Assembly (NCBI GenBank): GCA_963997415.1
Contig: CAXEMN010000004.1
Coordinates: 2,969 to 66,968 of the forward strand
Source: an uncultured Candidatus Poseidoniales archaeon
Lineage (GTDB): Archaea > Thermoplasmatota > Poseidoniia > Poseidoniales > Poseidoniaceae
Direction of reading: 5' to 3'
DNA: 64,000 nt
Under the pieces are notes generated by a model, which did not search any database, was not told where the DNA came from, and worked only from the letters and a program-made list of their open reading frames with translations. Positions 1-46,275 of the stretch are shown piece by piece. The first letter of the stretch is position 1; the number at the start of each line of letters is the position of its first letter. The translations under genes were made by a program, and so were the position numbers.

Positions 1-246
1 ACGCTCAGCATCAACTCCACTTCTGGAGTAAGTGTGATTCGGGATGCTTTGCTCGCTGCAGAATCTTTTTCTTCACCGGAGGAAGAAATTGAAATCACCT
101 GCCACTACAATGGCGCACCAGAATACAGAATTGAGCTGAAGGCACCAGATTTCAAAACTGCTGAAGCACTATGGGAGCAAGCAACATCGGCAACAGTGAC
201 CCACGTCATCGATGCTGGTGGCGAAGCCGATGCCCACCGTGAGTGA
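1..246 (+). CDS. eif2a: translation initiation factor aIF-2 alpha subunit, C-terminal fragment (gene starts upstream of window)
   Basis: Frame-1 reading frame open from nt 1 to stop at 246. Sequence resembles the aIF2-alpha C-terminal domain (ITCHYNGAPEYRIELKAPDFKTAEAL). It lies immediately upstream of Nop10, as in the conserved archaeal gene order. Confidence 0.5.
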   Translation, partial: TLSINSTSGVSVIRDALLAAESFSSPEEEIEITCHYNGAPEYRIELKAPDFKTAEALWEQATSATVTHVIDAGGEADAHRE

Positions 247-264
247 ACAAACTGAGGTGGAAAT

Positions 265-507
265 ATGGCAAGGCAAATCCTTCAACAATGCCTTTCATGC
301 AAAGCATGGTCATTGGCAACCACGTGCCCAGCATGTGGAAAAACTGCTCAGGCAGCGGCCCCTTTGAAGTGGTCTCCCGAAGATAACCGGGCTCAAATTC
401 GGAGGAAAATGTATGCTGTTGAGTCAAAAGAATGGGTCGAAGGCTTACCAACACTGCCTTCATTACAAGAGATGAAAGACGCCCATACTCCGTCCGAAGA
501 AGAGTGA
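265..507 (+). CDS. nop10: H/ACA ribonucleoprotein subunit Nop10 (zinc-ribbon)
   Basis: N-terminus CLSCKAWSLATTCPACGKTAQAAAPLKWSPEDNRAQIRRK matches the Nop10 CxxC...CPxCG...SPED motif. Position right after aIF2-alpha is typical. Confidence 0.55.
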   Translation: MARQILQQCLSCKAWSLATTCPACGKTAQAAAPLKWSPEDNRAQIRRKMYAVESKEWVEGLPTLPSLQEMKDAHTPSEEE

Positions 508-653
508 TGCTCGCTCAAAACCAAAGTGTGCCAAAAACGGTCCTGTGGGCACATCTCAACATCAAACATTATAGCGCGGCGCGATTCGTTCGAATGTTTA
601 TGGGATTGCACATTGAATGGAGAAAGCAGCCCAACACACTTGGCGATCATCGC

Positions 654-1355
654 ATGATGTTGTTCGCCCTACCTGGCGTTGGTAATGTGGGGAAATCAGC
701 CCTAGAAGGGCTGACTCAAGTCAATGAGTGCACAGAATTGGTGCGGCTGCATCACACCGCCTTACCACCTCTCGCTATGCTTGACGAGGACGGGCTTTTG
801 ACACCACCTCACCTCTCGCTATGCTCTATAGAGTCATCGACTGGAGTTCGCATCCTCACACTCACAGGCACTTCGCAACCTTTGGAGCCTGAGCATCAAG
901 GAAGTTTAGCTCAAGCGCTCATGGCATGGTTATCCGAACAAGGCGTCTCTGAATTGTATGTCCTTGCGGGATTGATGGACGCACCGACCCGTAAAGAGTG
1001 CTTCATTGTGCCTTCAAGCATCGAACATCGCATGGATTTGGAAGCAAAGGGTGTCGATGTACGAAGGGATGAACCAAAGTCTGGAGCCATTGGTTTGACG
1101 GCTTTGATGGCATCGATAGGCCCGCTTCACAGCGTTCAATCAGCCTGTGCCATTGCAACAACTGTTGGTTCCAGCGGAGATGTATTCGCCTCACAAAGGC
1201 TCCTCGAAGCACTTGATGGCTGGTTTGATCTTGGTATCGCCCTCCCGGCCGATGCTCAAGCCATGCTTTCTGAGAAACTAGCGGCACTCGCTCCTGATAC
1301 AAAGGAAGATTATGTCGCGGACCTGACTGAGTCGCCTGATGCATTTTACATGTAA
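654..1355 (+). CDS. PAC2-family (proteasome assembly chaperone 2-like) protein
   Basis: Start placed at MMLFALPGVGNVGKSALEGL, which matches the N-terminal GFPGVGxVG signature of archaeal PAC2-family proteins. The ORF frame is open from 432 but upstream residues look non-coding. Confidence 0.4.
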   Translation: MMLFALPGVGNVGKSALEGLTQVNECTELVRLHHTALPPLAMLDEDGLLTPPHLSLCSIESSTGVRILTLTGTSQPLEPEHQGSLAQALMAWLSEQGVSELYVLAGLMDAPTRKECFIVPSSIEHRMDLEAKGVDVRRDEPKSGAIGLTALMASIGPLHSVQSACAIATTVGSSGDVFASQRLLEALDGWFDLGIALPADAQAMLSEKLAALAPDTKEDYVADLTESPDAFYM

Positions 1356-1375
1356 ACAGCCCAAGCAGCCATCAA

Positions 1376-1458
1376 TTATCGATGGCGCCGAGAGAGAGAT
1401 TTGAACTCCCGTGTCCAAGGGACAGTGGATTTCGAATCCACCGCAATACCGGGCTATG
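1376..1458 (-). tRNA. tRNA-Ser (anticodon CGA); CCA encoded if extended to 1373
   Basis: Hand-folded reverse complement of 1376-1458. Acceptor stem GCCGAGA/TCTCGGC is 7 bp perfect. Anticodon stem GTGGA/TCCAC carries loop TTCGAAA, giving anticodon CGA. A long variable arm (TGTCC-CTT-GGACA) is typical of tRNA-Ser. T-arm is GGGAG-TTCAAAT-CTCTC, with discriminator G followed by CCA. Confidence 0.75.
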
Positions 1459-1522
1459 CGATCTCGGCCGCAAACTTGGGTTTAGCGCCACCGTCATAAG
1501 CATGGTGCTACACCAAACAGCC

Positions 1523-1723
1523 ATGCAGGTCCAGTTCACAGGCCGAGACCACAACCTCACCGTGGAGTGTAAGCAAGGTGCAAGCGTGAGGGATGCACTT
1601 GGAAAGGCAGGAATTCTTGCATCAACGGTCATTGTGAGCCATGAAGGCGTCGTCCTACCTCATGCGACAACACTCAACAGCGACATCACACTGCTCGTAA
1701 CCACGGTCTCATCCGGTGGTTGA
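1523..1723 (+). CDS. ThiS/MoaD/SAMP-like small ubiquitin-fold protein with C-terminal Gly-Gly
   Basis: 66-aa product MQVQFTGRDHNLTVECKQG...ITLLVTTVSSGG ends in GG immediately before the stop. Length and hydrophobic pattern fit a beta-grasp sulfur-carrier/SAMP. The upstream part of the 1382-1723 ORF overlaps the tRNA and is discarded. Confidence 0.45.
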   Translation: MQVQFTGRDHNLTVECKQGASVRDALGKAGILASTVIVSHEGVVLPHATTLNSDITLLVTTVSSGG

Positions 1724-1725
1724 TC

Positions 1726-3576
1726 TTAGCGGTCGACGCGTTCAGTGATCTGAATCTTTGAATTACGATTGATTTGTCCTTTGACATCGATGGCCCAAGC
1801 ATCGAGGCTTATATTGGCTGCAACGAGCGTATCCCCTATTTCTGCCAGATCGTATTGTGGGCCCCAATCCGCAGCCCAGCCTTCGACTTTCATTGAACCG
1901 TGAGCATCCATCAACATCATGCCCTTGCGATGCCATGACTTTCCATTTCTGCCAACACCTTTCTTTTCAAACCGATAGACGAGCCTTCCCGTGACGTTCC
2001 ATCTGGCTCTGAAATCCAACAAAGTGGCTTCGAGATGCTCATTCTTTCCGGCATAGACAACAATTGCATGCGGGTCGACTTTGAGTTGGAGTTCACCTTT
2101 GTAATTCGCTGAAGGTACAACGCCATCAAGCCGGACTCTATCCCCCTTTGCAAGATCCGTAGGCCATGCTGGTTGACCATCTTGATGTGTATCAACAAGC
2201 AGTTGCAAGGTAGCGAAATGGCCACCTTGCTCAATCTTTATCTTTGGGCGACGTCCATCGCCACCCCCGATAATACTGAACACTTCAGCGATCAGGGTCA
2301 TGCGTGGTTCGAGCTCTTGAATTGGCGTGAGATCGAACGTGGCTGAGGAACCTGGAAGACGTACTGATCCACCATCCGGAAGATGTTCAGGTCCATCGCC
2401 GCCCGGGCAAACAAGATTCCAATCACAACTTGAGCATCGCTTTTCCATCGGTGCTTCTGCTGGTACACCGCCTGAGGTGAAGCCCCTCATGGGCATTGGG
2501 TCAGGAGGGCAGTCCTCCATCGACGGTGTGGTCGCTTTGAGTTGCTTCCATAATGTTTCGAGATCAGATTCCATCACTTCCATTTCAGCGACGGTTGGAA
2601 CTTCGATTTCTTTGATGCTATTGGCGCCCAAGTACCAGATCTGTAATGCGTCAACTTGTTGTTCTCGATCGTGAGTGACCCACCACAACATGGCATACAT
2701 TCTGAGTTGCTCCACGTAATTTCCCGAGCGGTCCCCTGCACCTATACTGGCTTTGAGGTCAACGATGTTGATTCGCCCATCCCAACGATAGACTAGATCG
2801 TATTCACCCTGAAACCAATGTTCAGGATGAATGGCATTCATTGCGAATTTGCCTGCATGCGGGTCAACAAACCATGGACGGGTGATTTCCCAAGCCTCGA
2901 CCCACGCCAAAGGACCTTCTTGAGCGAGCGGGTGACGAAGGGACATCTCGTACCTTCGGCCGTCTGGAGCTGGCCATTCTGGACGGACCCCTTTTCTCCA
3001 TTGTTCAAGGTTGGGCCCCCCATTGGCATCATGACAACGTTGGACTTCTGCAAGATGCATCTCCAATCCTTTGAGGCACATATCCAAGCATCGTTCAGGG
3101 TCAACACTCGACCAATCCCCTGCTTTTCGCTCATCCTTTTCCCACTCTTCTTTCATAGCTTGCAGAGCTAATGGCAGGTGAACTTTGAGTCGATTTTGAG
3201 CCCAAGAGCGTAGCGCTTCAAGATCTGAAGGCCACATCTTCACGGGGAGTGCAAGAAGGCGATCGGCTGGCCATGGGCCTTCTGAGTTCCTGCTTGGCAC
3301 TCCATCTTCATCCAGAGGGATGTTCGAAAGCGTATCTGAGGAAGCTGTGTCAATCAACAAGGCAGGAGATTCCTGAAGCATCCTACAGAACGCTTCTTCA
3401 ACAGCCCTGCCGACAAAAAGCACTGGAATCTGAGGCATCTTGAACCGCAGAACTTTTTGATAAAACCAGAGCCTTGAACATGTCTTGTAGGCATTGACTT
3501 GGCTTGCACTCAAGCGGTTATATGGACCAACTGAATCCACATCTTTGACCGCAAGTCGAACAGGCATACACTGCAA
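1726..3576 (-). CDS. Cas4/RecB-family PD-(D/E)xK nuclease with Fe-S cysteine signature fused to C-terminal OB-fold-like domain (paralog 1)
   Basis: 616 aa. N-terminal LSASQVNAYKTCSRLWFYQKV is a Cas4/AddB-type S-x-S...C motif. Core motifs are GEYDLVYRWDG (D260), IVDLK (D273-x-K275) and QLRMY (QxxxY). C-terminal CSSCDWNLVC is CxxCx5C. The last ~220 aa are OB-like. No Walker A motif. Confidence 0.5.
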   Translation of the reverse strand: MQCMPVRLAVKDVDSVGPYNRLSASQVNAYKTCSRLWFYQKVLRFKMPQIPVLFVGRAVEEAFCRMLQESPALLIDTASSDTLSNIPLDEDGVPSRNSEGPWPADRLLALPVKMWPSDLEALRSWAQNRLKVHLPLALQAMKEEWEKDERKAGDWSSVDPERCLDMCLKGLEMHLAEVQRCHDANGGPNLEQWRKGVRPEWPAPDGRRYEMSLRHPLAQEGPLAWVEAWEITRPWFVDPHAGKFAMNAIHPEHWFQGEYDLVYRWDGRINIVDLKASIGAGDRSGNYVEQLRMYAMLWWVTHDREQQVDALQIWYLGANSIKEIEVPTVAEMEVMESDLETLWKQLKATTPSMEDCPPDPMPMRGFTSGGVPAEAPMEKRCSSCDWNLVCPGGDGPEHLPDGGSVRLPGSSATFDLTPIQELEPRMTLIAEVFSIIGGGDGRRPKIKIEQGGHFATLQLLVDTHQDGQPAWPTDLAKGDRVRLDGVVPSANYKGELQLKVDPHAIVVYAGKNEHLEATLLDFRARWNVTGRLVYRFEKKGVGRNGKSWHRKGMMLMDAHGSMKVEGWAADWGPQYDLAEIGDTLVAANISLDAWAIDVKGQINRNSKIQITERVDR

Positions 3577-3604
3577 TGTAAACCGACGCTTCTTAAAGTC
3601 TAAG

Positions 3605-5374
3605 TTAAGAATTGGAATCCTTGATGGTCAATCGGGTTTTTCGGTTGTCAATTCGTAGTTGAGGCAAACCTGCACGCCAACCGAGTTCCGCCGCCATGAG
3701 AGAGACCCGATCGCCCGGGCGAAGGCCTTCCATCTGCCCAGAGATGCTGGAGCCGAAGGCTGCGATTTCGACCACATGGGTGCCATCCCAAAGGTGCATA
3801 GCGAACATCGTCCATGGTTTTTCATCCAAACGGACCCCTGAGCGTTTTCGTAAACTAAGAACAATACCCTCAACATTTGCCCGTGTTCGAAGAAGCCCAA
3901 TCCTTGTTGTTTCCGATTTCAGTTCCCGTCCTGATTTCGAAAAATGCGCTTCAGCATCCGCAACGGTGAGGATCTCACTCTTCGAATCAAGGTACAAACG
4001 GGGGCTTCCCCTCCACACTCCCGGGAGCGCATTCAGGATGACAATCTCACCTTTTGGTCCATCATGCAGCGCAGAATACGAACCTGGTTCGCTCTCTTCG
4101 ACTGTTATTTGTGCCCCACCTGCAACCAGCATAGCGCCAAGCACCGGTTCTCCAAAGTGATTTGGCAATGGCCCCCAAGCACCGGTGAATGTACCATGGA
4201 CATGCACTCTGTTTGGGATTGATGAAAGAGGTTGGCTCGGTGAGGCGATCTCCATTGAACGGGTCGAGGTAATCGACGCCAACAATTCATCATTCACAAT
4301 CGAACCATCTTGATCAGTACCGAGGCTGCACCAGTGGCAACCTGCTGCTTCCCCAGAACACGCTTTACCGGGCGGTGCTGGAAGTGCGACTGGTCCAGAA
4401 CCCATGGACATCATGGATTTGTTAATCGAATAGAATTCTTCGGTCATGGTTTCAATTTCATGCTTCGTTGGTGGGTCATAGGTGAGGCGATGTGGTCCTG
4501 TAAGGTACCATCCTTCCAGACCATCGATGGTTTGACCAGAATGCGTTTCATGCCATAGCCAAGCATAAAATCGAAGTTGATGTTGAAGCGAGGCAGCAAA
4601 CCTCGATGTCGGGTCACCTGATTTGATATCAACCAGCCGTATGTTCCCATCCCAGCGCAACACCAAATCCAATTCCCCAGCAGCCCAGCCTTCTGGGTGG
4701 TAGAGGCGCTGTGGTTGATGAACACGTGGGTCTTTGATCCAAGGGCGCGCAATCTCCCAAGCCTCATGCCACGAGACCTCATCTCCAGGCTCATTCCAAA
4801 CCATAGGTTCGTCTTTCGCCCATGTGCGCATACCGAAGCTTCGCACTTTATCCGGCAGAGGGAAACGAGGCTCGTCGCCCCAAGCGGGTGAAGGGATCTC
4901 GAAAGGGCATTCGCCTCGACGATATTGCTCGATGTAGGGGCCTCCACCTTCGATCTTACATCGATTGACCTCTTCCATGAATAACGTCAAACCAGAGCGC
5001 AGTTTTTCTTCCATCGTCGAACGTTCGATTTCTTCCCAAACCCAATCTGAGGTTCGCCAAAGAGATTCTTCCCATGCCACCTTACCAATTTCTTGAGCAC
5101 GCTGAGCTGCAGCCGGTATTTTTTCTGCGATCCAATGGGTCAAATCAGTAAGTGAGTTTATACTTGCATCGGGCCTATGCATCAAAAGGCCACATAATTC
5201 ATCTTCGATAACGATACCAAGAATTTGCGAAGGCGTTGTGGGTCCAGAGAGCCCCAGTTTTGAACCTAAAAACCATTGTCGCTCACACCTCAAAAAGGTG
5301 GTCAAGCCGCTTGCTGAGATCCTTGAACGGGATCGGCCCAATGGGCCACCAAGCGGTGGAAGTCCAACTGGCAT
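3605..5374 (-). CDS. Cas4/RecB-family PD-(D/E)xK nuclease with Fe-S cysteine signature fused to two C-terminal OB-fold-like repeats (paralog 2)
   Basis: 589 aa, collinear with the neighbour. Motifs are ISASGLTTFLRCERQWFL, GELDLVLRWDG, LVDIK, QLRFY, and a CSGEAAGCHWC cysteine cluster. The C-terminal repeats (LWDGTHVVEIAAFG...GDRVSLMAAELGWRAG) resemble ssDNA-binding OB folds such as the RPA OB domains in this window. Confidence 0.5.
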   Translation of the reverse strand: MPVGLPPLGGPLGRSRSRISASGLTTFLRCERQWFLGSKLGLSGPTTPSQILGIVIEDELCGLLMHRPDASINSLTDLTHWIAEKIPAAAQRAQEIGKVAWEESLWRTSDWVWEEIERSTMEEKLRSGLTLFMEEVNRCKIEGGGPYIEQYRRGECPFEIPSPAWGDEPRFPLPDKVRSFGMRTWAKDEPMVWNEPGDEVSWHEAWEIARPWIKDPRVHQPQRLYHPEGWAAGELDLVLRWDGNIRLVDIKSGDPTSRFAASLQHQLRFYAWLWHETHSGQTIDGLEGWYLTGPHRLTYDPPTKHEIETMTEEFYSINKSMMSMGSGPVALPAPPGKACSGEAAGCHWCSLGTDQDGSIVNDELLASITSTRSMEIASPSQPLSSIPNRVHVHGTFTGAWGPLPNHFGEPVLGAMLVAGGAQITVEESEPGSYSALHDGPKGEIVILNALPGVWRGSPRLYLDSKSEILTVADAEAHFSKSGRELKSETTRIGLLRTRANVEGIVLSLRKRSGVRLDEKPWTMFAMHLWDGTHVVEIAAFGSSISGQMEGLRPGDRVSLMAAELGWRAGLPQLRIDNRKTRLTIKDSNS

Positions 5375-5387
5375 TCATTTCACCTCA

Positions 5388-7166
5388 TCAATGGTTGAAG
5401 GAGTAGAAATCACCTGATGTGCGTTGTTCTCGGTCCTTACGTGATTCTGATTTGTTGATTCGAGGGCGTTTGGAATCGTGGTCACGACGGAATGTGACAT
5501 TGACGCCTTCAAGGAAGCGATTCATACCCTCTTGCAACTTGAAGGGGCCTTCGGCTTTTCCATGACGGCCCCCTTCGCCTTCAAAGACCAGCAAAGAATC
5601 GCTTACAATATCGATGAAGTATACGTCGTGATCGATGACGAAAGCCGATTTCTCGTTGGCTTCCATCGTTCTACGAATGGCTTTTGCTGCTTCCATACGA
5701 GCGTTTGCATCCAAATGCGCTGAAGGTTCGTCAAGGAGGTAGAGGTCTGCTTCACGGCCAAGGCATATGGCAATTGAGACCGCTTGCCGTTCACCACCAG
5801 AGAGCTTCTTCACCCTCTTTGGTAGCAATTCGTCAACACCCAATGCACGAATCACGTTGACGTTGAATTCGCCGGTTCGCCATCGTGGCCCGATTTCACT
5901 GTCGAGCCACAATTGGACGCTTCCGTCGATGTCGACATCGATATGTTGTGGTTTGTAGGAAATTGAAGCATCCGAAGTTACCCAGCCCTCATCGTAATCG
6001 TGTTCACCTGCGAGCACTTTGATCATGGTGGATTTCCCAGTTCCGTTAGGACCGACAACGCCGACAACCTCGGAGCGATGGACTGCACCTTCACCGGTTT
6101 GGAGTGTGAAATCTCCAAGTTTTTTACCAAGGCCTCCCCAGGAGACGACTTGAGAACCAAGATCAGCGACTCGGTCGCTATGATTGAGGAACTTGATTGG
6201 CTTGTCTCGAATTCGGACATTTTGTTCTGGAAGGAATCCATCAAGGTAGGTGTTGATGGCTTGTCGAGTTGACCTAGCTGGTGTGAAAATTCCGAAAGCC
6301 CCTTTCTTACCATAGACGATGTGCACGAGGTCACAAAGCACGTCAAGAACAGCTAAATCGTGTTCAATGACGATGACGCGTTTGGTTTCTGAGAGGTGTT
6401 GAATGATTCGAACAATTCGCATGCGTTCATGGATGTCAAGGTACGAAGAGGGTTCGTCAAAGAAGTAGACATCAACATCACGGAGCAATGTGGCACAAAT
6501 GGCCATGCGTTGAAGTTCACCACCAGAGAGTTGTTGAATGGTTCGATCGAGCAAATGGTCAATGCCGAGTTTTTTGGTCATTTCATCAAACATCTTTCGT
6601 TCGTCGACCTTGGAAAGAAGTTCTCGAACGGTTCCCTTGACCCTTTTTGGAAGGCGGTCGACGTTCTGTGGTTTGAGAGCCACTTTGATTTTACCCGCTT
6701 TCACAGCAACAAAGAAATCCCTTAATTCACCTCGTGGTAAGGACTCAATCACCCCGTCCCAATCTGCTTCCTTGTCGAGCCAATCACCAAGGTTTGGGAT
6801 CATCCGCCCAGATAAGGCATTGATGGCAGTCGATTTCCCCATCCCGTTCGGACCGAGAATGCCGACCACGCTCTCTTTCGAAGGTGTAGGCAAGCGAAAC
6901 AGTCGAAATCCATTCATGGAATATCGGTGAATCATATCCGTCTCAAGTTCACTGGGCAACTGTTCGATGATCAATGCATCATGGGGGCATTTGTTGACGC
7001 AAATCCCGCAACCAATGCAGAGGCTTTCTGAGATATGTGGTTTACCGGTTTTGTCATCAAGGATGATGCACTCTTGTCCGTTTCGAACGGGTGGACAAAA
7101 GGCGTGACACTCGTCATTGCACTTCTTTGGTTGACAACTGTCTTCCTTCAGAACGGCTACTCTCAT
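5388..7166 (-). CDS. abcE1: ABCE1/RLI ribosome-recycling ATPase (4Fe-4S ferredoxin N-terminus plus twin ABC ATPase)
   Basis: 592 aa. N-terminal CxxCxxC ferredoxin motifs (CQPKKCNDEC..CIGCGICVNKCP). Two Walker A motifs (GPNGMGKST, GPNGTGKST) and ABC signatures LSGGELQR / LSGGERQ. Confidence 0.9.
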   Translation of the reverse strand: MRVAVLKEDSCQPKKCNDECHAFCPPVRNGQECIILDDKTGKPHISESLCIGCGICVNKCPHDALIIEQLPSELETDMIHRYSMNGFRLFRLPTPSKESVVGILGPNGMGKSTAINALSGRMIPNLGDWLDKEADWDGVIESLPRGELRDFFVAVKAGKIKVALKPQNVDRLPKRVKGTVRELLSKVDERKMFDEMTKKLGIDHLLDRTIQQLSGGELQRMAICATLLRDVDVYFFDEPSSYLDIHERMRIVRIIQHLSETKRVIVIEHDLAVLDVLCDLVHIVYGKKGAFGIFTPARSTRQAINTYLDGFLPEQNVRIRDKPIKFLNHSDRVADLGSQVVSWGGLGKKLGDFTLQTGEGAVHRSEVVGVVGPNGTGKSTMIKVLAGEHDYDEGWVTSDASISYKPQHIDVDIDGSVQLWLDSEIGPRWRTGEFNVNVIRALGVDELLPKRVKKLSGGERQAVSIAICLGREADLYLLDEPSAHLDANARMEAAKAIRRTMEANEKSAFVIDHDVYFIDIVSDSLLVFEGEGGRHGKAEGPFKLQEGMNRFLEGVNVTFRRDHDSKRPRINKSESRKDREQRTSGDFYSFNH

Positions 7167-7282: not shown

Positions 7283-7822
7283 TCAAATGAGACCTTTCAG
7301 GTGTTCGTGTCCCTTGATGAGGCGCACGGTGCATGGCGTTGGGAACTTCATGCTTGCCTTGCGGAGTGCATCACGGGCTGTGAGGTAATATTCTGGGTGA
7401 ACTTGCAGTGAAATAACTCGTTGTCCTCGCTTTACACGAGCTGCTGTTCCGACGTTCTTTCCAAACGCACATCGCATACCTTGAGACACACGGTCTGCAC
7501 CTGCACCGGTTGCTTGCTTGTTTTCGCGGAGAACATGGTGAGGGAAGGTGTGAACTCGAAGAGCATAGCCTTGAGTTCCTGCGACCTTACGGATCGTGGA
7601 ATTCGAAATAACACGTGCTGCTTCCAAAGCAGTGTGACGAATTTGGACGTTGTTGTCAGCGCGCAATTCAAGGATGACAGGGAACTTTCCTGTCTCTGCA
7701 GCAACACGGTTTCCAACGTGGTACTGGTGGATTCTGTTGTTTGGGACACCACCGATGAACTTACGTCGAGTGTATGCAGGTCCCTTGAGTCGGCGATACA
7801 TAGATGCTGGTTTACGTGCCAT
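7283..7822 (-). CDS. rpl10e: 50S ribosomal protein L10e (uL16)
   Basis: Start trimmed to MARKPASMYRRLKGPAYTRRKFIGGVP, the canonical L10e N-terminus. The upstream ORF extension to 8077 is rejected. Confidence 0.85.
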   Translation of the reverse strand: MARKPASMYRRLKGPAYTRRKFIGGVPNNRIHQYHVGNRVAAETGKFPVILELRADNNVQIRHTALEAARVISNSTIRKVAGTQGYALRVHTFPHHVLRENKQATGAGADRVSQGMRCAFGKNVGTAARVKRGQRVISLQVHPEYYLTARDALRKASMKFPTPCTVRLIKGHEHLKGLI

Positions 7823-7972
7823 AATGAACTCTCCAAGCAACCCTGCGACCAATGGTTCCCTTATCATCCCTCCGCCTCGGCCACTGCGACCGAATATGCC
7901 CCGAATCAAAGTCAAAAGATACCTCGAACACCGACAAAAGCATTCATGTGCTCCGTTCATTTGTTTGCGAAC

Positions 7973-9256
7973 ATGGCGAAAGGATGGCGTGGATACCTCG
8001 AAGAGGAATCCGAGTTTCAATGGATAGCCATGGCAGGATTTCTGGTCTTCATTCTTCTTGGAGCACTGGCGATTCAAGGTACGAGTAATTTGCCTGGTGT
8101 CGAGGTTGGCTCAAGCGATTCAAGCCATTATGGCAAACGTATTCTTGATATCGAGTACACAGGAGATGAATCATTCACCGCCAAGATTCTAAACGACGGG
8201 GGCATTGACCTTTTCCAGCAAAACGATCGAACAACAGTCACTCAAATCATGACTGCTGAAGATGGTTTGCCAGCAGACGACATCAACTTCATCACATCGC
8301 TAGAAAACGGAAACACAGCCATTTCCCCTTCAACAAACACCATCCAAGTCATTCATTCGCCTCAAAATGAAGCTGCTTCGGCAACCACAATCACCACATT
8401 CGAACTCGATCGAAGCCACGGGAATTTCACGGTAATGGATCTTGCTGAATCATCAGACGATCAATCCACACAATGGATGATGGTGACTATGGAGGGCTCG
8501 AAAACCAGCCTTCGTGGGTTTGGAACAATTGGGAGTGGATCCGAATCAAGCAGCACCATTGTCGCCTCGATGTCTTCCAGCATCCTTTCCACCCCGATGG
8601 TGAACACCGCAGATGCCGTGTGGCAGAAAGTAATCGCACTTGGAAACGAACAATGGGTCGCCTCTGGCTACCTCTCATACACGAGCAATGAAGCAGGAGC
8701 AAGTCCTGCAGCACCGAAAATTATCCCTGTGCTGGCCGTCATTGATTGGGAAGGCGGACTGACCGCCCCTACAGTTTCAACCATGCATTCGGGAGAAGGT
8801 GGTTTGTACCATTCCTTGATGATTTTAGATGATGGAGACGTCTTTGCTGCAGGAGACCAAGGGAGCACGCTTGTAAGCACATCAGGATCGATGACTCACC
8901 TCAACGTGCCAAGCGTTGCTGCTGTTGTTGATTGCCGTGATCGAGTCTGGTTATTTGGTGATGTTGGAAGCAAAACAATCGTCAGGTACTCTGGAGAAAA
9001 TGCAGAAGAACTGTCGTTGTCGCAAGCATTGACCTTCCAAATCGAAAGCAAAGGACATGGGAAGGAACTGATCTATTTGCATGGTACAGATGAACGTGGA
9101 GAGGCTCAAACCCTGCTCATAGACACCAGCGCACCAGGTTCTATAGAGAGTGGCCGTGGATTCTTGAACTTCCTTTTCCTCACTGTATTCAGCATCACCA
9201 TGGGTGTCATGGCATGGACGGCAGGATCGAGATTATTGGCTGCCCGTCGGCCCTAG
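7973..9256 (+). CDS. secreted/surface protein, Ser/Thr-rich, N-terminal signal-anchor and C-terminal TM
   Basis: Start moved to MAKGWRGY (7973) because upstream codons are antisense to L10e. Hydrophobic N-terminus FQWIAMAGFLVFILLGALAIQG and C-terminal helix FLNFLFLTVFSITMGVMAW. No recognised catalytic motif. Confidence 0.4.
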   Translation: MAKGWRGYLEEESEFQWIAMAGFLVFILLGALAIQGTSNLPGVEVGSSDSSHYGKRILDIEYTGDESFTAKILNDGGIDLFQQNDRTTVTQIMTAEDGLPADDINFITSLENGNTAISPSTNTIQVIHSPQNEAASATTITTFELDRSHGNFTVMDLAESSDDQSTQWMMVTMEGSKTSLRGFGTIGSGSESSSTIVASMSSSILSTPMVNTADAVWQKVIALGNEQWVASGYLSYTSNEAGASPAAPKIIPVLAVIDWEGGLTAPTVSTMHSGEGGLYHSLMILDDGDVFAAGDQGSTLVSTSGSMTHLNVPSVAAVVDCRDRVWLFGDVGSKTIVRYSGENAEELSLSQALTFQIESKGHGKELIYLHGTDERGEAQTLLIDTSAPGSIESGRGFLNFLFLTVFSITMGVMAWTAGSRLLAARRP

Positions 9257-9370: not shown

Positions 9371-12022
9371 ATGGCAAAACGGGGGATGATGGACCAATTC
9401 ACTGACATAAAACTCGAGCATCCGGATTCAGTTTTATTTTTCCGAATGGGCGACTTCTATGAATTGTTTCATGAGGATGCCGTGACTGGTTCTGATGTTC
9501 TTGGTTTAGCTCTCACCTCTCGAGATAAAAAAGCAGACCAGCCAATCAAGATGGCAGGCTTTCCGTGGCATGCTTTGGAAGACAATATTCGCACCATGCT
9601 CAAAGCAGGACACAAGGTCACTGTTGCTGAACAAGAACAGGAACTACGGGAAGGTGCGAAGTTGCTTGAGCGGGTCGTAACACGCGTCTACACCCCTGGA
9701 AGTTTGTATGAAGAATCCTTACTAGGAACTGAAGAAAGATCCTTGCTCGCAAGTATCTGTTTGGACAAAAACGCCATTGGGATTGGCATTATCGATGCCT
9801 CGACCGGCCAAGCTTGGGCTTCAAATTTAGAAGGCGATGACCGGTTTTCAAGAGCACTTGATGAGGTCCTTCGATGGCGTCCGACAGAAGTTGTTGTGTC
9901 GCCAAAAGATGCCGAAGATGCCACATTACGAGCATTATTTACGCATCTCGACGGCGTGACAATCAGCCAGCATAAGGCTTCAAACGCCAAACGAAGAGAC
10001 CGCCTAACTAAGGTGCTCAAGGTCGCTGATCTTGGACATATTGACCTTGATGATGCACCACTGGCTCTTGCTGCGGCGGGACTGGCCGCAGACTACCTCG
10101 CTTCGATGCATCTCACAGAAGAAGTCCCGCTCAGAGATCTTGAAGTCATGGAAGAGAGCGCTCATTTGGTACTCGACCAAACTACATTACGGAACTTGGA
10201 ACTCACCTCAACGCTCGCAGGTGAGTACGAAGGAAGCCTGCTGTCAACCATGAACGCCTGCAGAAGTGCAATGGGACGTAGGCTTCTCAAAACATGGATT
10301 TTGAGACCGCTTGCCGACCTCGAAGCCATTGCAGCTCGTCACGATGCTGTAGCCAGCCTCTCTCGTTCTGCTCGGCGTTTGGATGGTTTACGTGAGGCTT
10401 TACGAGGCTTGAGAGATATGGAACGCTTGGCCACACAACTGGCATACAATCGTTCGAATGGTCGGGATTTACTTGCCGTCGCAGATGCACTCGAACGGAT
10501 GCCAGCCATCATCAACTTGTGCAATGAAACCGAAAACCCGTTGCTGCTCCATCTTTCTTCCAACCTCGATGCTCTAGATCAGCTCGCAGAAGACATTCGA
10601 AGGACCATCGTCGATGAGCCCCCACTCAGCGTACGGGACGGGGGTTTGCTTCGCACCGGATTTGACGACAAGGTCGACGAACTTAGAGAAATAGCCACCA
10701 ATGGCCATAATTGGTTTTCCGAACTTGAAGCAAGCCTCAGAATCAACTTGCAAATCCCTTCGTTGAAGGTCAAAATGAACCGACAAATTGGGTGGTTTAT
10801 TGAAGTGACAAAGGTGAATGAAGCAAAGGTCCCAGAAGACTGGAAGCGCAAACAGCAAATGACAAACGGTTCGAGGTACGTCACTGATGAACTGCTTCAA
10901 CGGGATGATGCATTGCTTACAGCAGATACAAAATTGAAGGAATTGGAATACAGAGCGTTCATTCAATTGAGAGAACTATGCAAACAGCACGCCCCAACAT
11001 TGGCACAAATTGCTGGGAAGGTTGCCGCTATTGATGTGTTGCAATGTTTCGGAACCATTGCACGGAATCGAGCATGGACACGCCCAGAAATGGCGCAACA
11101 CGACCAAATGAAGGTGCAAGGGGCACGGCATCCTGTGCTTGAACAACAATCTGGCTTTGTGCCAAATGATTTGGATCTTTCAAAGAAGCGGAAGTTTTTG
11201 CTTATCACAGGACCGAATATGGGTGGTAAGTCGACCTATTTACGGACCACTGCGTTGATGAGTATCCTGGCCCAAAGTGGTTCATTCGTTCCAGCCAGCA
11301 AGGCGAAAATAGGTCTTGTTGACCGGATATTCACACGAGTTGGAGCAAGCGATGACCTTCGAAGAGGCCGTTCAACCTTCATGATGGAGATGATCGAAGT
11401 CGCTCATATATTACGTCGGGCGACCTCAAATTCATTGGTTCTACTCGATGAAATTGGACGAGGCACCTCAACCTTCGACGGGTTGTCTATTGCTTGGTCG
11501 GTCACTGAAGACATATGCAAGCGGATCCAGGCAAGGACCCTTTTTGCAACGCATTACCATCAATTAATTGGCTTGGAAGGCGAGGTCGAAGGTCTTGTGA
11601 ACGTCCACGTTCAAGTGGCTCAAGCCAATGGTGAACTTCGATTCATGCACACGGTTGCAGATGGTCCTTGTGACGACTCTTATGGTGTCCAAGTGGCGGC
11701 TTTAGCAGGTCTTCCTCGTCCGGTGGTTGAACGAGCGACTGATTTGCTTGCTTTCTTAGAACGGCAAGCCCAGGGTGCGAAGGCTGGAGAATCGGGCACA
11801 CCAACCGCCCGAGACCACGGCCAAGCGAGTTTGATGGGCTACTTTGCTGCTGCTGCAATGAACAATAATCCAGCAAAAGAAACGCCACCCGGGCCCCCGC
11901 AATCCCACCTTGATGTCATTGAAAACATCGCAGGATTGGATGTCGATGAGATGACACCAAGACAAGCGCACGATGCACTGTATCAATTGAAGAAGTTACT
12001 TGGAAGTGAAAACAGTGAGTGA
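9371..12022 (+). CDS. mutS: DNA mismatch repair protein MutS (bacterial MutS1 type)
   Basis: 883 aa. N-terminal mismatch-binding motif FFRMGDFYELF. Walker A GPNMGGKST and ABC-like DEIGRGTSTFDG. SD-like GGAGGTGA sits 8 nt upstream of the ATG. Confidence 0.9.
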   Translation: MAKRGMMDQFTDIKLEHPDSVLFFRMGDFYELFHEDAVTGSDVLGLALTSRDKKADQPIKMAGFPWHALEDNIRTMLKAGHKVTVAEQEQELREGAKLLERVVTRVYTPGSLYEESLLGTEERSLLASICLDKNAIGIGIIDASTGQAWASNLEGDDRFSRALDEVLRWRPTEVVVSPKDAEDATLRALFTHLDGVTISQHKASNAKRRDRLTKVLKVADLGHIDLDDAPLALAAAGLAADYLASMHLTEEVPLRDLEVMEESAHLVLDQTTLRNLELTSTLAGEYEGSLLSTMNACRSAMGRRLLKTWILRPLADLEAIAARHDAVASLSRSARRLDGLREALRGLRDMERLATQLAYNRSNGRDLLAVADALERMPAIINLCNETENPLLLHLSSNLDALDQLAEDIRRTIVDEPPLSVRDGGLLRTGFDDKVDELREIATNGHNWFSELEASLRINLQIPSLKVKMNRQIGWFIEVTKVNEAKVPEDWKRKQQMTNGSRYVTDELLQRDDALLTADTKLKELEYRAFIQLRELCKQHAPTLAQIAGKVAAIDVLQCFGTIARNRAWTRPEMAQHDQMKVQGARHPVLEQQSGFVPNDLDLSKKRKFLLITGPNMGGKSTYLRTTALMSILAQSGSFVPASKAKIGLVDRIFTRVGASDDLRRGRSTFMMEMIEVAHILRRATSNSLVLLDEIGRGTSTFDGLSIAWSVTEDICKRIQARTLFATHYHQLIGLEGEVEGLVNVHVQVAQANGELRFMHTVADGPCDDSYGVQVAALAGLPRPVVERATDLLAFLERQAQGAKAGESGTPTARDHGQASLMGYFAAAAMNNNPAKETPPGPPQSHLDVIENIAGLDVDEMTPRQAHDALYQLKKLLGSENSE

Positions 12023-14039
12023 ACCAAAGCGAATTATGCAACTCGATGAAGCGACCATCGGGCACATTGCTGCTGGTGAAGTGGTTGAACGGCCTGCACA
12101 AGTGGTGAAGGAATTGCTGGAAAATAGCCTTGATGCAGAGGCTCAAAAAATTGTCATCACTGTGGAAAGAGGTGGCTTTGATTTGATTCGAATTGAAGAT
12201 GATGGCAGTGGTATCGATGCTGACGACCTTCCATTAGCACTCGATCGTCACGCCACTTCAAAACTCAAAAAACGTGAAGACCTCAATTCAATTCACACGC
12301 TTGGCTTCAGGGGTGAGGCGTTAGCAAGCATCGGCATGGTGTCTGGACTTGGCATAGCAAGCCGACCTGTCGGTACAGAGGGAAAACGAATTGTGATGAA
12401 TGATGGAATCAAAGGCGGGATTGAACCCTTTGGAATGCCTCATGGCACGCGTATTGATGTCGAGCATTTGTTTCAAAATACCCCTGCTCGCTTAGCATTC
12501 CAACGACGACCAGCCACAGAAAATGCACGCATTGTTGACGTCGTTGTTGCTCATGCAATGGCGCACAAAGAAGTGGCTTTCAGACTCCTCATCGATGAAC
12601 GGGTCGTTCTCGATGTGCCAGCATCAGAAGCGATGACTGACCGTCTTTACGATCTGCTTGGGGGCCAAGCCCAATCCATGCTTGAACTCGATGCACCCGA
12701 AGCGGATGCAAAAGCCCCTGGTGAGGAAACATGGTCCGGCTGGATCAGCACCCCTGATATCACACGTGGCAAAGGTGATGATATTCACATCCTCATCAAT
12801 GATCGACCAGTTGCTTCAGGACCATTCTTGCAGGCCATTCGAAGAGGATACAGAACTCGGTTAATGCAAGGACGGCACCCGTTAGCAGTGCTTTCACTCA
12901 CACTGCCCCCAAATGAGGTCGATGTCAACGTTCACCCCACAAAAAGAGAAGTTCGTCTTCGTCATTCATGGCGGGTTCTCGAGCGATTAGAAAGGGCCAT
13001 TGCCCACACTTTGGAGTCGGTGCCGACCCAACCGGATGCCGCAGGGGGTATCCCCGGATTGCAAGGCTTGAGTCAACATCAGGCCCCAAGCATTCAGGAA
13101 CACTTCAAACCACAACCCAGTCAAACGTCGGATGAACCAATCGATCCGATTGCCGCAGCTGCCGGTACAACACCTGTTCTTCTGCCAAAACAGCAAGTGG
13201 CGCAACAGACGCCTCCTGCATGGGCGATTGCTGCAGGAGCCCAGTTGAACCTCCATGGCGGAGAAGCTGAACCGATCACCAAACCCGCTAAGCAGCGACC
13301 TCAATCGACTGCTCCTTCGGCACAGAATACCTTACCTGGAATGGATGAAAAACCAACTGCTCCTGCTTTATCACCAGCGGAAAGGGACCTGCACAGACAT
13401 TCTGGAAAAGGCGTGCGAACATCGCCAAACGATGAATCGCCACTTGGCGACATCATCAACGAATTACCTAAGATGGAGCCATTGGCCCAATTTGCAGATT
13501 CATACATCCTTGTTCAGGCCGAGGATGAATTGTTATTGATCGATCAGCATGCACTCCATGAACGAATTCGCTACGAGCGATTAAGGAATGATGAATCAAT
13601 TTGGGCAAGCCAAACACGACTTGAACCGCTCACATTGGACCTTGATGCGCGACAGAGCACGCGTATGGAAGCCGCACAGGATCGATTCAGATCTGTAGGT
13701 TTCGAACTCCAAAATTCGAATCAGGGATGGTCGGTCACGGCAACGCCACAATTGCTTGTCGGAAAAGAGGTCATCCCATTCATGCTTGATCTCCTTCAGG
13801 ACACCTCAGAGGATGGCGCACCATTGACCACTGTGGACGATCGTAAAGACCACCTCGCGTTTTTGAACGCATGCCGTGGCGCTGTGAAAGCAAACGAGAA
13901 ACTTACTCTGCCTGAAATGAGGCGCTTGCTGGATGATATGCGCCGCATCCCAAACCCATGGGCATGTGTTCATGGCCGACCTACCGCACTCAGACTTCCG
14001 CTTGACGCACTTGACCACCATTTCGGACGGCACGGCTAA
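12000..14039 (+). CDS. mutL: DNA mismatch repair protein MutL
   Basis: GHKL ATPase motifs (ELLENSLDA, DDGSGI, GFRGEAL). C-terminal dimerisation region. Overlaps the mutS stop by 23 nt; an alternative start is MQLDE at 12036. Confidence 0.85.
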   Translation: MEVKTVSEPKRIMQLDEATIGHIAAGEVVERPAQVVKELLENSLDAEAQKIVITVERGGFDLIRIEDDGSGIDADDLPLALDRHATSKLKKREDLNSIHTLGFRGEALASIGMVSGLGIASRPVGTEGKRIVMNDGIKGGIEPFGMPHGTRIDVEHLFQNTPARLAFQRRPATENARIVDVVVAHAMAHKEVAFRLLIDERVVLDVPASEAMTDRLYDLLGGQAQSMLELDAPEADAKAPGEETWSGWISTPDITRGKGDDIHILINDRPVASGPFLQAIRRGYRTRLMQGRHPLAVLSLTLPPNEVDVNVHPTKREVRLRHSWRVLERLERAIAHTLESVPTQPDAAGGIPGLQGLSQHQAPSIQEHFKPQPSQTSDEPIDPIAAAAGTTPVLLPKQQVAQQTPPAWAIAAGAQLNLHGGEAEPITKPAKQRPQSTAPSAQNTLPGMDEKPTAPALSPAERDLHRHSGKGVRTSPNDESPLGDIINELPKMEPLAQFADSYILVQAEDELLLIDQHALHERIRYERLRNDESIWASQTRLEPLTLDLDARQSTRMEAAQDRFRSVGFELQNSNQGWSVTATPQLLVGKEVIPFMLDLLQDTSEDGAPLTTVDDRKDHLAFLNACRGAVKANEKLTLPEMRRLLDDMRRIPNPWACVHGRPTALRLPLDALDHHFGRHG

Positions 14040-34849: not shown

Positions 34850-34940
34850 AGAATCGCTTCTGCGTCAACAGTCCAAAAGGACAACGCTTAATCTGGTTCA
34901 ATCCGACAGCGCTAAGACCTGCCTACATGTGTCAAGATGC

Positions 34941-35552: not shown

Positions 35553-35559
35553 ACTGGCT

Positions 35560-37608: not shown

Positions 37609-37654
37609 GCCACCCCGACAAGGGCCTCCCGCATCAATTCAATGGTGGTTCTGC

Positions 37655-41435: not shown

Positions 41436-46275
<4,840 letters not shown>

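What the first reader, a model, noticed from the sequence alone, without database searches (positions are those of the whole stretch)
1726..5374. Tandem paralogous Cas4/RecB-type Fe-S nucleases fused to OB-fold modules, without helicase or cas partners, close behind ABCE1
Two adjacent same-strand genes of 616 and 589 aa are clear paralogs, collinear over their full length. Each carries the full Cas4/AddB-nuclease signature: an N-terminal S-x-S...C block, the PD-(D/E)xK core (D, D-x-K, QxxxY), and a C-terminal three-cysteine cluster. Together these form the four-Cys Fe-S ligand set. Each also has an unusually long ~150-aa insertion before the core and a ~220-aa C-terminal extension. That extension reads like one or two ssDNA-binding OB folds; in paralog 2 it resembles the RPA OB domains encoded elsewhere in this window. 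There is no Walker A/helicase domain, and no cas1/cas2 or CRISPR array nearby. The genes sit 14 nt and 29 nt apart directly downstream of ABCE1/RLI, suggesting co-transcription. A nuclease-plus-OB heterodimer without a motor is not a family I can name. It looks like an AddAB- or Dna2-style end-processing nuclease module stripped of helicases. Possible roles include DNA end resection or repair, a defence nuclease, or, given the ABCE1 linkage, something ribosome- or RNA-associated.
Basis: partly seen in the sequence, partly recalled or inferred. Interest (0 to 1): 0.8.

Follow-up and report, generated by a model that had tools for sequence, protein, structure and literature searches.

The report
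Paired iron-sulfur nucleases with OB folds
Marine Group II archaea (Poseidoniales) all carry, right behind the ribosome-recycling gene ABCE1, two sister genes for a Dna2/AddB/Cas4-type DNA-cutting enzyme fused to two RPA-like single-strand-binding modules instead of a helicase; this architecture is uncharacterised and probably trims DNA ends during replication or repair.

Summary
The two adjacent minus-strand genes, which I call nucA (3605-5374, 589 aa) and nucB (1726-3567, 613 aa from the ATG), are full-length paralogs (25% identity, E 3e-39). Both match Pfam PDDEXK_1.

The catalytic residues and a four-cysteine set are conserved across the whole order, and dN/dS is 0.03-0.08.

The order ABCE1 → nucA → nucB is kept wherever the contig reaches: in the 80 species loci examined and in three divergent loci (one from a cluster named Thalassarchaeaceae). 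Intergenic gaps are short, or the genes overlap by 4 nt.

Outside Poseidoniales the only relatives are a small family of single ~440-aa genes, one of them in a Planctomycetes genome. None occurs in the phage, plasmid or viral collections searched.

Most likely this is a housekeeping nuclease pair that processes single-stranded DNA ends. The heterodimer and the biological role remain inferred. I rate it a new variant of a known kind, of moderate-to-high interest.

The parts
3605..5374 (-). nucA: upstream paralog, 589 aa. Fe-S PD-(D/E)XK nuclease with two C-terminal OB folds.
4259..5323 (-). nucA nuclease domain (aa 18-372). Includes the N-terminal Cys helix (C30), a helical insert (about aa 66-210), the catalytic core (E234, D236, D249, K251, Q266, Y270) and the Cys cluster C339/C346/C349.
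3929..4237 (-). nucA OB fold 1 (aa 380-482).
3608..3913 (-). nucA OB fold 2 (aa 488-589).
1726..3567 (-). nucB: downstream paralog, 613 aa from the ATG at 3567 (the ORF list gives a TTG at 3576). Same architecture as nucA.
2383..3516 (-). nucB nuclease domain (aa 18-395): C30, a helical insert (about aa 66-240), E255, D257, D270, K272, Q287, Y291 and C378-x2-C381-x5-C387.
   Evidence: Invariant in 21 orthologs and in 15 of 15 representatives (13 of 15 for C30; the other two are N-terminally truncated). hhalign to the nucA nuclease domain E 3e-48.
2032..2382 (-). nucB OB fold 1 (aa 396-512).
   Evidence: AF2 strands 400-505. Foldseek aligns the tandem OB module to RPA70 DBD-A/B (4gop_C, 9e-9), HIN-200 and Teb1 AB.
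1729..2031 (-). nucB OB fold 2 (aa 513-613).
5388..7166 (-). ABCE1/RLI (592 aa), the gene immediately upstream and the probable first gene of the operon.
   Evidence: Fer4_RLI plus two ABC_tran domains. Directly upstream of nucA in every locus where the contig reaches.
5380..5386 (-). Shine-Dalgarno-like GAGGTGA, 5 nt before the nucA ATG and inside the 13-nt ABCE1-nucA spacer.
   Evidence: Sequence. GAGGTG/GGAGG-type motifs recur in the 8-52 nt spacers of 66 of 68 loci.
3590..3597 (-). TTTAAGAA box centred about 27 nt upstream of the nucB ATG. Possibly an internal archaeal TATA-type promoter (inferred).
   Evidence: Sequence. A TTTAAGAA, TTCAAGAA or TTCAAAAG box sits at the same distance in most Poseidoniaceae loci. 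It is absent where the genes are 16-22 nt apart or overlap.

Best explanation
nucA and nucB are two catalytically intact, iron-sulfur-cluster PD-(D/E)XK nucleases of the Cas4/AddB/Dna2 structural class. Each is fused at its C-terminus to a tandem pair of RPA-like OB folds.

**Proposed mechanism.**
- The single N-terminal Cys and the three Cys after the core hold an Fe-S cluster. As in AddB and Dna2, the cluster staples the N- and C-terminal extensions and closes the catalytic groove into a tunnel, so the enzyme needs a free single-stranded end (inferred from topology and fold).
- The tandem OB module supplies the single-strand DNA grip. In Dna2, AddAB and AdnAB that grip comes from the helicase domains. 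The OB module holds a tail or flap and feeds it to the tunnel (inferred).
- The two paralogs probably act together, as a heterodimer or as two specialised enzymes for the two strand polarities, like AddA/AddB and AdnA/AdnB (inferred only from obligate adjacency and parallel conservation).
- Unwinding, if needed, would come from a separate helicase.

**Expression and role.** The genes are expressed as housekeeping genes, nucA at least in one message with ABCE1. The most likely role is DNA-end or flap processing in recombinational repair, fork rescue or Okazaki maturation in Poseidoniales.

**Shown versus inferred.** Shown: gene structure, paralogy, fold class, motif conservation, lack of a helicase, order-wide synteny, purifying selection. 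Inferred: the Fe-S cluster, the tunnel, the DNA substrate, the heterodimer and the pathway.
For: **Family and fold.**
- Paralogy E 3e-39. PDDEXK_1 above threshold in both.
- Confident AF2 models.
- Foldseek aligns the C-terminal ~210-240 residues to two-OB modules: RPA70 DBD-A/B, Teb1 AB and HIN-200.

**Conservation.**
- Catalytic E/D, D-x-K and Q-x3-Y are 15/15 in representatives of both orthogroups across the order.
- A 1+3 Cys set is always present. In Poseidoniaceae nucA the third Cys has moved to the other side of the CxxC.
- dN/dS is 0.03-0.08, similar in the nuclease and OB parts.

**No motor.** No helicase fold or P-loop.

**Pairing and operon.**
- nucA lies directly upstream of nucB in 78 of 80 species loci (the other two end at nucB). 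ABCE1 lies upstream in every locus that reaches that far.
- The same order is kept in a locus from a cluster named Thalassarchaeaceae and in the most divergent members, at 34% identity. Their upstream flank is different, and in one of them nucA and nucB overlap by 4 nt.
- Spacers are short and carry SD motifs.

**Setting.**
- Housekeeping neighbours: uL16, ABCE1, aIF2alpha-Nop10-PAC2, MutS-MutL.
- No relatives in IMG/VR, phage or plasmid collections.

**Literature.**
- In Dna2 the Fe-S domain makes the tunnel, and the helicase domain mainly provides DNA affinity (PMC4716839).
- The L44E-S27E-aIF2alpha-Nop10 cluster is habitually next to replication genes in archaea (PMC2643942).
Against: - No biochemical or expression data exist.
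- The heterodimer was not modelled, because no multimer tool was available.
- OB folds and PD-(D/E)XK nucleases can also act on RNA. AspRS/AsnRS anticodon-binding OBs score almost as well as RPA, and HIN-type tandem OBs bind double-stranded DNA.
- The deep ABCE1 linkage could mean a translation-linked role.
- The bacterial relatives are single genes about 440 aa long, so a pair is not intrinsically required.
- I could not test whether Poseidoniales lack HerA-NurA, Dna2 or other resection systems.
Confidence: 0.5

Rival explanations
1. An ABCE1-coupled RNA or ribosome-associated nuclease. The pair would cut mRNA or rRNA on stalled or recycled ribosomes, with the OB folds binding RNA. The conserved operon with ABCE1 would then reflect a shared pathway.
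For: - ABCE1 → nucA → nucB is kept across the whole order, even where the upstream flank changes. Spacers are 8-52 nt with SD motifs, or the genes overlap.
- Neighbours on the other side are also translation genes: aIF2alpha, Nop10, S27e, L44e.
Against: - Every close structural neighbour of the nuclease domain is a DNA enzyme: Dna2, AdnAB, ACE1, Cas4, MGME1, Exo5.
- The best OB matches are ssDNA binders, and the only sequence-level hint is to archaeal RPA.
- The related ~440-aa family includes a Planctomycetes genome, and the three contexts examined show no ABCE1 gene beside it.
- Archaeal operons often mix translation and DNA-replication genes (PMC2643942).
Confidence: 0.12
2. An antiviral or anti-plasmid defence nuclease, acting like solo-Cas4, ACE1 or DruK-type effectors that degrade invading DNA ends.
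For: - Weak partial matches to PADLOC Cas4 and DruK models.
- Solo-Cas4 genes have been proposed to have defence or repair roles (PMC5704561).
Against: - One fixed chromosomal locus between core housekeeping genes in 80 of 80 species loci, with no defence genes nearby.
- Strong purifying selection, dN/dS 0.03-0.08.
- The orthogroups track the family-level divergence.
- No homologs in viral, phage or plasmid collections.
- The PADLOC hits cover only the catalytic core (about 50-100 residues) at 14-29 bits.
Confidence: 0.08
3. Two independent, subfunctionalised nucleases. They would be neighbours only because of an old tandem duplication, each acting alone or as a homo-oligomer on different substrates, with no heterodimer.
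For: - The related ~440-aa family consists of single genes with no paralog nearby.
- Many Poseidoniaceae have a conserved TATA-like box before nucB, which suggests separate transcription.
- The OB modules of the two paralogs have diverged beyond sequence recognition, except OB2.
Against: - The pair is never separated in about 85 loci spanning 30-99% identity.
- In some lineages the genes are 16-22 nt apart or overlap by 4 nt, which suggests translational coupling.
- Both keep intact active sites and evolve at similar rates.
- The known two-nuclease end processors AddAB and AdnAB are heterodimers of paralogs (established knowledge).
Confidence: 0.3

Closest known systems
Dna2 nuclease domain (eukaryotic Dna2, PDB 5EAN; also bacterial Bad)
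   Different: There is no SF1B helicase domain, no beta-barrel/stalk and no P-loop. The OB folds are C-terminal, tandem and RPA DBD-like, whereas Dna2 has a single N-terminal OB that binds RPA rather than DNA. Sequence identity is only about 12%, and there is no sequence-level hit to Dna2.
AddAB / AdnAB two-nuclease helicase-nuclease complexes
   Different: There are no UvrD-like motor domains at all. OB folds occupy the remaining ~210 residues. The subunits are about 600 aa, not about 1,050-1,250 aa. A heterodimer has not been shown here.
Cas4 / solo-Cas4 / ACE1 (stand-alone Cas4-family Fe-S nucleases)
   Different: The proteins are three times longer, with a 150-170 aa helical insert and two OB folds. 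They score far below the cas4 model cut-off: 17-24 bits against 65. There is no cas1, cas2, Argonaute or CRISPR nearby. OB-fold fusions are not mentioned in the text of the Cas4 phylogenomic survey.
RPA70 DBD-A/DBD-B (and archaeal RPA1 OB folds)
   Same: The C-terminal module is a tandem of two OB barrels. It superposes on RPA70 DBD-A/B, Teb1 AB and P. abyssi RPA, and OB2 shows faint sequence similarity to archaeal RPA1.
   Different: It is fused to a nuclease. It has no zinc-ribbon OB and no trimerisation core. It passes no Pfam RPA or SSB model. It has no significant similarity to the RPA-like ORF of the same window.
Related ~440-aa single-gene family (P0346, P0447 and others; one member in a Planctomycetes MAG)
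   Same: Its nuclease domain is clearly homologous, including the helical insert and the C-x2-C-x5-C cluster: hhalign E 3e-42 to nucB and 2e-22 to nucA. It has no helicase or cas partner.
   Different: It is a single gene of about 430-480 aa, with a C-terminal tail of only about 110 residues. That tail may be one OB; it was not modelled, and hhalign is inconclusive. The extra conserved Cys of the helical insert is missing. The three contexts examined are bacterial housekeeping genes.

Membership tests
Pfam PF12705 PDDEXK_1 (AddB/Cas4-like PD-(D/E)XK nuclease superfamily) | Score above the curated gathering threshold. | tested here: met
   nucA 50.0 bits and nucB 58.7 bits against a cut-off of 22. 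nucB covers profile positions 1-247 of 247.
Pfam PF12705 PDDEXK_1 (AddB/Cas4-like PD-(D/E)XK nuclease superfamily) | Catalytic D/E ... D-x-K and Q-x3-Y motifs are present and conserved. | tested here: met
   Invariant in 21 and 27 orthologs and in 15/15 plus 15/15 representatives at 50% identity.
Fe-S cluster nucleases of the Cas4/AddB/Dna2 type | Four Cys ligands: one in the N-terminal helix and three after the core. | tested here: met
   nucB has C30 plus C378/C381/C387, all invariant. nucA has C30 plus CxxC invariant, with a third Cys always present but on either side of the CxxC depending on the clade.
Fe-S cluster nucleases of the Cas4/AddB/Dna2 type | A bound [4Fe-4S] or [2Fe-2S] cluster. 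| not testable with these tools
   Needs UV-vis or EPR spectroscopy, or iron analysis, of purified protein.
Fe-S cluster nucleases of the Cas4/AddB/Dna2 type | RecB-like fold, with structural neighbours in this class. | tested here: met
CRISPR-associated Cas4 (TIGR00372) | Score above the equivalog cut-off. | tested here: not met
   16.9 and 23.6 bits against a cut-off of 65.
CRISPR-associated Cas4 (TIGR00372) | Encoded next to cas1/cas2 or a CRISPR array. | tested here: not met
   No cas family among the window ORFs of 180 aa or more. No repeated 18-mers in the window. The conserved neighbours are housekeeping genes in 80 loci. Small ORFs such as cas2 were not scanned.
CRISPR-associated Cas4 (TIGR00372) | A single-domain protein of about 170-220 aa. 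| tested here: not met
   589 and 613 aa, with a helical insert and two OB folds.
AddAB / AdnAB / RecBCD helicase-nucleases | SF1 helicase or translocase domains with Walker A/B motifs. | tested here: not met
AddAB / AdnAB / RecBCD helicase-nucleases | Two paralogous nuclease-bearing subunits forming a heterodimer. | tested here: inconclusive
   Paralogy and invariable adjacency are shown. The physical complex was not tested, because no multimer prediction was available.
Dna2 | Fe-S nuclease domain fused to an SF1B helicase. | tested here: not met
RPA/SSB OB-fold ssDNA-binding proteins | OB-fold barrel(s) structurally matching DNA-binding OB domains. | tested here: met
RPA/SSB OB-fold ssDNA-binding proteins | A sequence-family match (Pfam REPA_OB, SSB or tRNA_anti-codon) above threshold. 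| tested here: not met
   No such Pfam hit at E up to 1. NCBIfam replication factor A E 0.11. Profile against PDB RPA E 0.19 and 1.3.
RPA/SSB OB-fold ssDNA-binding proteins | Binds single-stranded DNA. | not testable with these tools
   Needs EMSA or fluorescence anisotropy with ssDNA, dsDNA and RNA.

The most novel reading that the evidence does not exclude
The pair is a motor-less, two-nuclease DNA-end resection machine. Tandem RPA-like OB folds replace helicase domains, and the machine is the Poseidoniales-specific substitute for HerA-NurA or AddAB-type resection. Alternatively, and more radically, it is a nuclease physically coupled to ABCE1 that links ribosome recycling to nucleic-acid cleavage. 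Either would be a new type of end-processing or quality-control machine in the most abundant archaea of the surface ocean.
Probability: 0.2. Interest if true: 0.8.

Novelty: new variant of a known kind. Interest (0 to 1): 0.58.

Why it matters
Fe-S PD-(D/E)XK nucleases of the Cas4/AddB/Dna2 class are known either as small stand-alone enzymes or fused to helicases. A version with tandem RPA-like OB folds in place of the motor, present as an obligate paralog pair, has not been described in the sources I searched. It would show another way to build a DNA-end processor.

The pair is a conserved, strongly constrained core feature of Poseidoniales (Marine Group II). These archaea are uncultured but are among the most abundant in surface oceans, and their replication and repair machinery is essentially unstudied. 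The pair therefore fills a gap in their informational gene set.

The deep operon link with ABCE1 is a concrete, testable example of the puzzling coupling of translation genes with DNA-metabolism genes in archaea. The related single-gene family that includes a Planctomycetes genome points to an inter-domain transfer followed by duplication and domain accretion.

Tried and rejected
**Searches that found nothing useful.**
- Sequence searches of both proteins and both family profiles against all PDB chains gave no significant hit. Fold comparison was needed instead.
- An exhaustive HMMER search of 1.84 billion cluster representatives found only 204 hits. No third archaeal clade and no helicase-fused relatives appeared.
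- Scans of IMG/VR, phages and plasmids found no relatives.
- Literature searches for Poseidoniales nucleases or repair, and for Cas4-OB fusions, found no description of this family.

**Checks that came out negative or inconclusive.**
- PADLOC gave only weak core-only Cas4 and DruK hits. I rejected these as evidence for defence.
- hhalign between individual OB domains, and with the C-terminal tail of the related ~440-aa family, was inconclusive.
- BLAST of the C-terminal extensions against this window's RPA-like ORFs was negative.
- dN/dS against loci at 69-86% identity was saturated. I repeated it with the two closest loci.

- Multimer prediction of nucA with nucB.
- Access to model coordinates, to measure Cys-Cys distances or look for a tunnel.
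- A whole-genome census of HerA, NurA, Mre11, Rad50 and Dna2 in Poseidoniales.

Full report
**1. What is in the sequence**

Two minus-strand ORFs lie directly downstream of ABCE1.
- ABCE1 is 5388-7166: Fer4_RLI, Fer4 and two ABC_tran domains.
- I call the upstream ORF nucA (3605-5374, 589 aa) and the downstream one nucB (1726-3576 from a TTG).
- Every ortholog of nucB begins MPV.... The true start is therefore almost certainly the ATG at 3567, giving 613 aa.
- The spacers are 13 nt (ABCE1 stop to nucA ATG, containing GAGGTGA) and 37 nt (nucA stop to nucB ATG).
- The two proteins align over their full length at 25% identity, E 3e-39.
- Both pass the Pfam PDDEXK_1 threshold: 50 and 58.7 bits against 22.
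- The CRISPR cas4 equivalog model is hit far below its cut-off: 17 and 24 bits against 65.
- Neither protein, nor either family profile, has a significant sequence match to any PDB chain.

**2. Structure**

AlphaFold2 models built on alignments of 59-62 homologs are confident. nucB has pLDDT 85.7 and pTM 0.80. nucA has pLDDT 85.5 and pTM 0.85. Both show the same layout:
- an N-terminal helix pair carrying the first Cys;
- a 150-170-residue, mostly helical insert;
- the alpha/beta PD-(D/E)XK core;
- a long helix and the Cys-rich loop;
- two all-beta barrels.

| Model | Dna2 (5EAN) | AdnA | ACE1 | AdnB | Call |
|---|---|---|---|---|---|

- Foldseek aligns the whole C-terminal ~210-240 residues to two-OB modules: RPA70 DBD-A/B 9e-9, then HIN-200 and Teb1 AB.
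- At sequence level only OB2 shows a faint likeness to archaeal RPA1: E 0.19 for nucB and 1.3 for nucA.
- No helicase domain is matched anywhere.
- nucA has no Walker A. The one G-x4-GKS string in nucB (residue 537) sits in the OB2 loop that aligns with the RPA OB.

**3. Conservation**

Each paralog has hundreds of 90%-identity clusters of near-constant length. Where they are named, the names are Poseidoniales, Poseidoniaceae or Euryarchaeota MAGs.

An exhaustive HMMER scan of 1.84 billion 50%-identity representatives with the nucB profile found only 204 proteins at E ≤ 1e-3.
- Every full-length archaeal hit sorts cleanly into the nucA or the nucB orthogroup, down to about 30-34% identity.
- These include clusters named Thalassarchaeaceae.

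Motif conservation across those representatives:
- E/D, D-x-K and Q-x3-Y are 15/15 in both groups.
- nucB keeps C30 and C-x2-C-x5-C.
- nucA keeps C30 and C-x-x-C, plus a third Cys. That Cys lies downstream (C-x2-C-x5-C) in divergent lineages but upstream (C-x6-C-x2-C) in Poseidoniaceae, including this window.
- A further Cys in the helical insert (motif EVxxC...GGP) is conserved in 15/15 nucA and 12/15 nucB representatives.
- That insert Cys is missing in P0346, the one member of the related ~440-aa family that I checked. Its role is unexplained.

Against the two closest loci, dN/dS is 0.03-0.05 for nucA and 0.06-0.08 for nucB. The values are alike for the nuclease and OB parts. At matched divergence the two proteins diverge at about the rate of the neighbouring PAC2 protein and faster than MutS or ABCE1.

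**4. Genomic context**

In the 80 best species-level genome loci the order is: MutS ← unknown 611-aa gene ← | uL16 → ABCE1 → nucA → nucB | ← small ORF ← PAC2.
- All 80 are Poseidoniales by name or synteny. One is labelled Verrucomicrobiales and one Thermoplasmatota.
- nucA lies directly upstream of nucB in 78 of 80. The other two contigs end at nucB.
- ABCE1 is upstream whenever the contig reaches that far.
- ABCE1-nucA spacers are 8-52 nt in 66 of 68 loci, usually with a GAGGTG/GGAGG motif.
- nucA-nucB spacers are mostly 16-61 nt.

Most Poseidoniaceae carry a conserved TTTAAGAA, TTCAAGAA or TTCAAAAG box about 27 nt before the nucB ATG. This may be an internal TATA-type promoter, which is an inference.

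In three divergent loci the upstream flank is different (squalene/phytoene synthases instead of uL16), yet ABCE1 → nucA → nucB → 66-aa ORF | ← PAC2 ← (Nop10) ← aIF2alpha ← S27e ← L44e persists.
- One locus comes from a cluster named Thalassarchaeaceae. The other two carry the most divergent nucA members, at 34% identity.
- In one locus nucA and nucB overlap by 4 nt.

In this window the same neighbours are present:
- an aIF2alpha C-terminus (1-243), Nop10 (265-507) and PAC2 (to 1355);
- a small ORF ending in Gly-Gly (1523-1723) that corresponds to the SAMP2-like 66-aa gene.

This L44E-S27E-aIF2alpha-Nop10(+COG2047) cluster is the one that Berthon et al. found habitually adjacent to replication genes in archaea (PMC2643942).

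Elsewhere the window holds bacterial-type MutS/MutL, a Hel308-like helicase, gyrase and a SprT-like protein. It holds no cas genes among the ORFs scanned and no CRISPR-like repeats.

**5. Relatives outside Poseidoniales**

The only outgroup is a small family of 23 clusters, about 430-480 aa.
- One member is from a Planctomycetes MAG.
- All three members examined are single genes among ordinary bacterial housekeeping genes, with no helicase, cas or paralog nearby.
- Their nuclease domain, including the insert, is clearly homologous: hhalign E 3e-42 to nucB and 2e-22 to nucA.
- Their ~110-residue tail could be a single OB, but this is unverified.
- No relatives exist in IMG/VR, the phage collection or the plasmid collection.

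**6. Interpretation**

The molecular identity is well supported: an Fe-S-type Cas4/AddB/Dna2-class nuclease domain, tandem RPA-like OB folds and no motor.

In Dna2 and AddB the Fe-S cluster staples the N- and C-terminal extensions and supports the loop that turns the catalytic groove into a tunnel. The tunnel admits only a free single-stranded end, and the Dna2 helicase domain mainly contributes DNA affinity (PMC4716839).

nucA and nucB have the same 1+3 Cys topology and match Dna2 over more residues than any other nuclease. I therefore infer three things:
- they are end-dependent single-strand nucleases;
- the OB tandem plays the DNA-holding role;
- the two paralogs divide labour, possibly as a heterodimer handling the two strand polarities, as in AddAB and AdnAB.

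A housekeeping role in DNA-end, flap or fork processing fits the fixed locus, the strong constraint, the absence from mobile elements and the informational-gene neighbourhood.

The heterodimer, the Fe-S cluster, the substrate and the pathway are all untested here.

The main alternatives are:
- an RNA or ribosome-linked role suggested by the very deep ABCE1 operon link (about 0.12);
- independent, subfunctionalised enzymes (about 0.3, overlapping with the main model);
- defence (about 0.08).

**7. Comparison and novelty**

The proteins are members of the PDDEXK_1 superfamily and of the Fe-S Cas4/AddB/Dna2 structural class.
- They fail the tests for CRISPR Cas4 on score, size and context.
- They fail the tests for AddAB, AdnAB, RecBCD and Dna2 because they have no helicase.

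A phylogenomic survey of the Cas4 family describes pfam12705 members fused to UvrD, or linked to COG1205 helicases, but does not mention OB fusions in its text (PMC5704561). Databases name these proteins only 'PD-(D/E)XK nuclease family protein' or 'hypothetical protein'.

I therefore rate the finding a new variant of a known kind: a lineage-wide, uncharacterised domain architecture and gene pair, not a categorically new system.

Noticed in passing
window 1-1723 (+): The window opens with the end of aIF2alpha (1-243), then Nop10 (265-507), PAC2/COG2047 (to 1355) and a small ORF whose last 66 aa (1523-1723) end in Gly-Gly. That ORF corresponds to a SAMP2-like ubiquitin-like gene in related loci. 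This is the archaeal 'LSIN + COG2047' cluster, and it converges on the 3' end of nucB in the 80 loci and the three divergent loci examined.
   Followed up: partly
window 3590-3597 (-), and L001-L080 nucA-nucB spacers: A conserved TTTAAGAA, TTCAAGAA or TTCAAAAG box lies about 27 nt upstream of the nucB ATG in most Poseidoniaceae. This suggests an internal TATA-type promoter and a leaderless or short-leader nucB message. Other lineages have 16-22 nt spacers or a 4-nt overlap instead.
   Followed up: partly
nucA aa 139 (window ~4958-4960) and nucB aa 178 (window ~3034-3036): An extra Cys in the helical insert (motif EVxxC...GGP) is conserved in 15/15 nucA and 12/15 nucB representatives. It is absent from P0346, the one member of the related ~440-aa family checked. 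C61 is also conserved in many members. Its function (a second metal site, a disulfide or redox sensing) is unknown.
   Followed up: no
nucA aa 339-349 (window ~4328-4360): The third Cys of the cluster is permuted. Poseidoniaceae nucA has C-x6-C-x2-C, whereas divergent nucA orthologs, nucB and the related ~440-aa family have the canonical C-x2-C-x5-C.
   Followed up: yes
L081, L082 (Planctomycetes-type contigs): The only relatives outside Poseidoniales are single ~440-aa genes. One is from a Planctomycetes MAG. The three contexts examined are bacterial housekeeping genes with no partner genes. This hints at inter-domain transfer followed by duplication and gain of an OB fold, or the reverse.
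   Followed up: partly
L070 (NZEQ01000046.1): A contig filed under a 'Verrucomicrobiales bacterium' MAG carries the complete Poseidoniales synteny (uL16, ABCE1, nucA, nucB, PAC2, MutS) at 50-90% identity. The contig is almost certainly mis-binned.
   Followed up: no
window 9371-14039 (+): Bacterial-type MutS (883 aa) and MutL (679 aa) lie about 2 kb upstream of the uL16-ABCE1-nuclease block, on the opposite strand. This arrangement is conserved in the Poseidoniaceae loci.
   Followed up: partly
window 7421-9256 (+): A 611-aa ORF with no Pfam match lies between uL16 and MutS, and its 5' part overlaps uL16 on the opposite strand. It is conserved in position across the loci but diverges quickly (30-90% identity). 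Its real start is probably well downstream of the listed TTG.
   Followed up: no
window 25950-28570 (-): ORFs of 564 and 309 aa have only sub-threshold OB-fold hits (Ssb-like_OB E 0.003, REPA_OB_2 E 0.15). They may be this organism's divergent RPA. They show no significant similarity to the OB modules of nucA or nucB.
   Followed up: partly
window 32231-38272 (-): A Hel308-type helicase (872 aa), an unannotated 682-aa ORF and a SprT-like zinc protease lie together. Gyrase A/B are at 41436-46170. Overall the window is rich in DNA-metabolism genes.
   Followed up: no
nucA aa 1-18 (window 5321-5374): The N-terminal peptide of nucA (MPxGxPPLGGPLGRSRSR) is almost invariant across the family but is predicted to be disordered (pLDDT about 50). 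It could be a partner- or nucleic-acid-binding motif.
   Followed up: no
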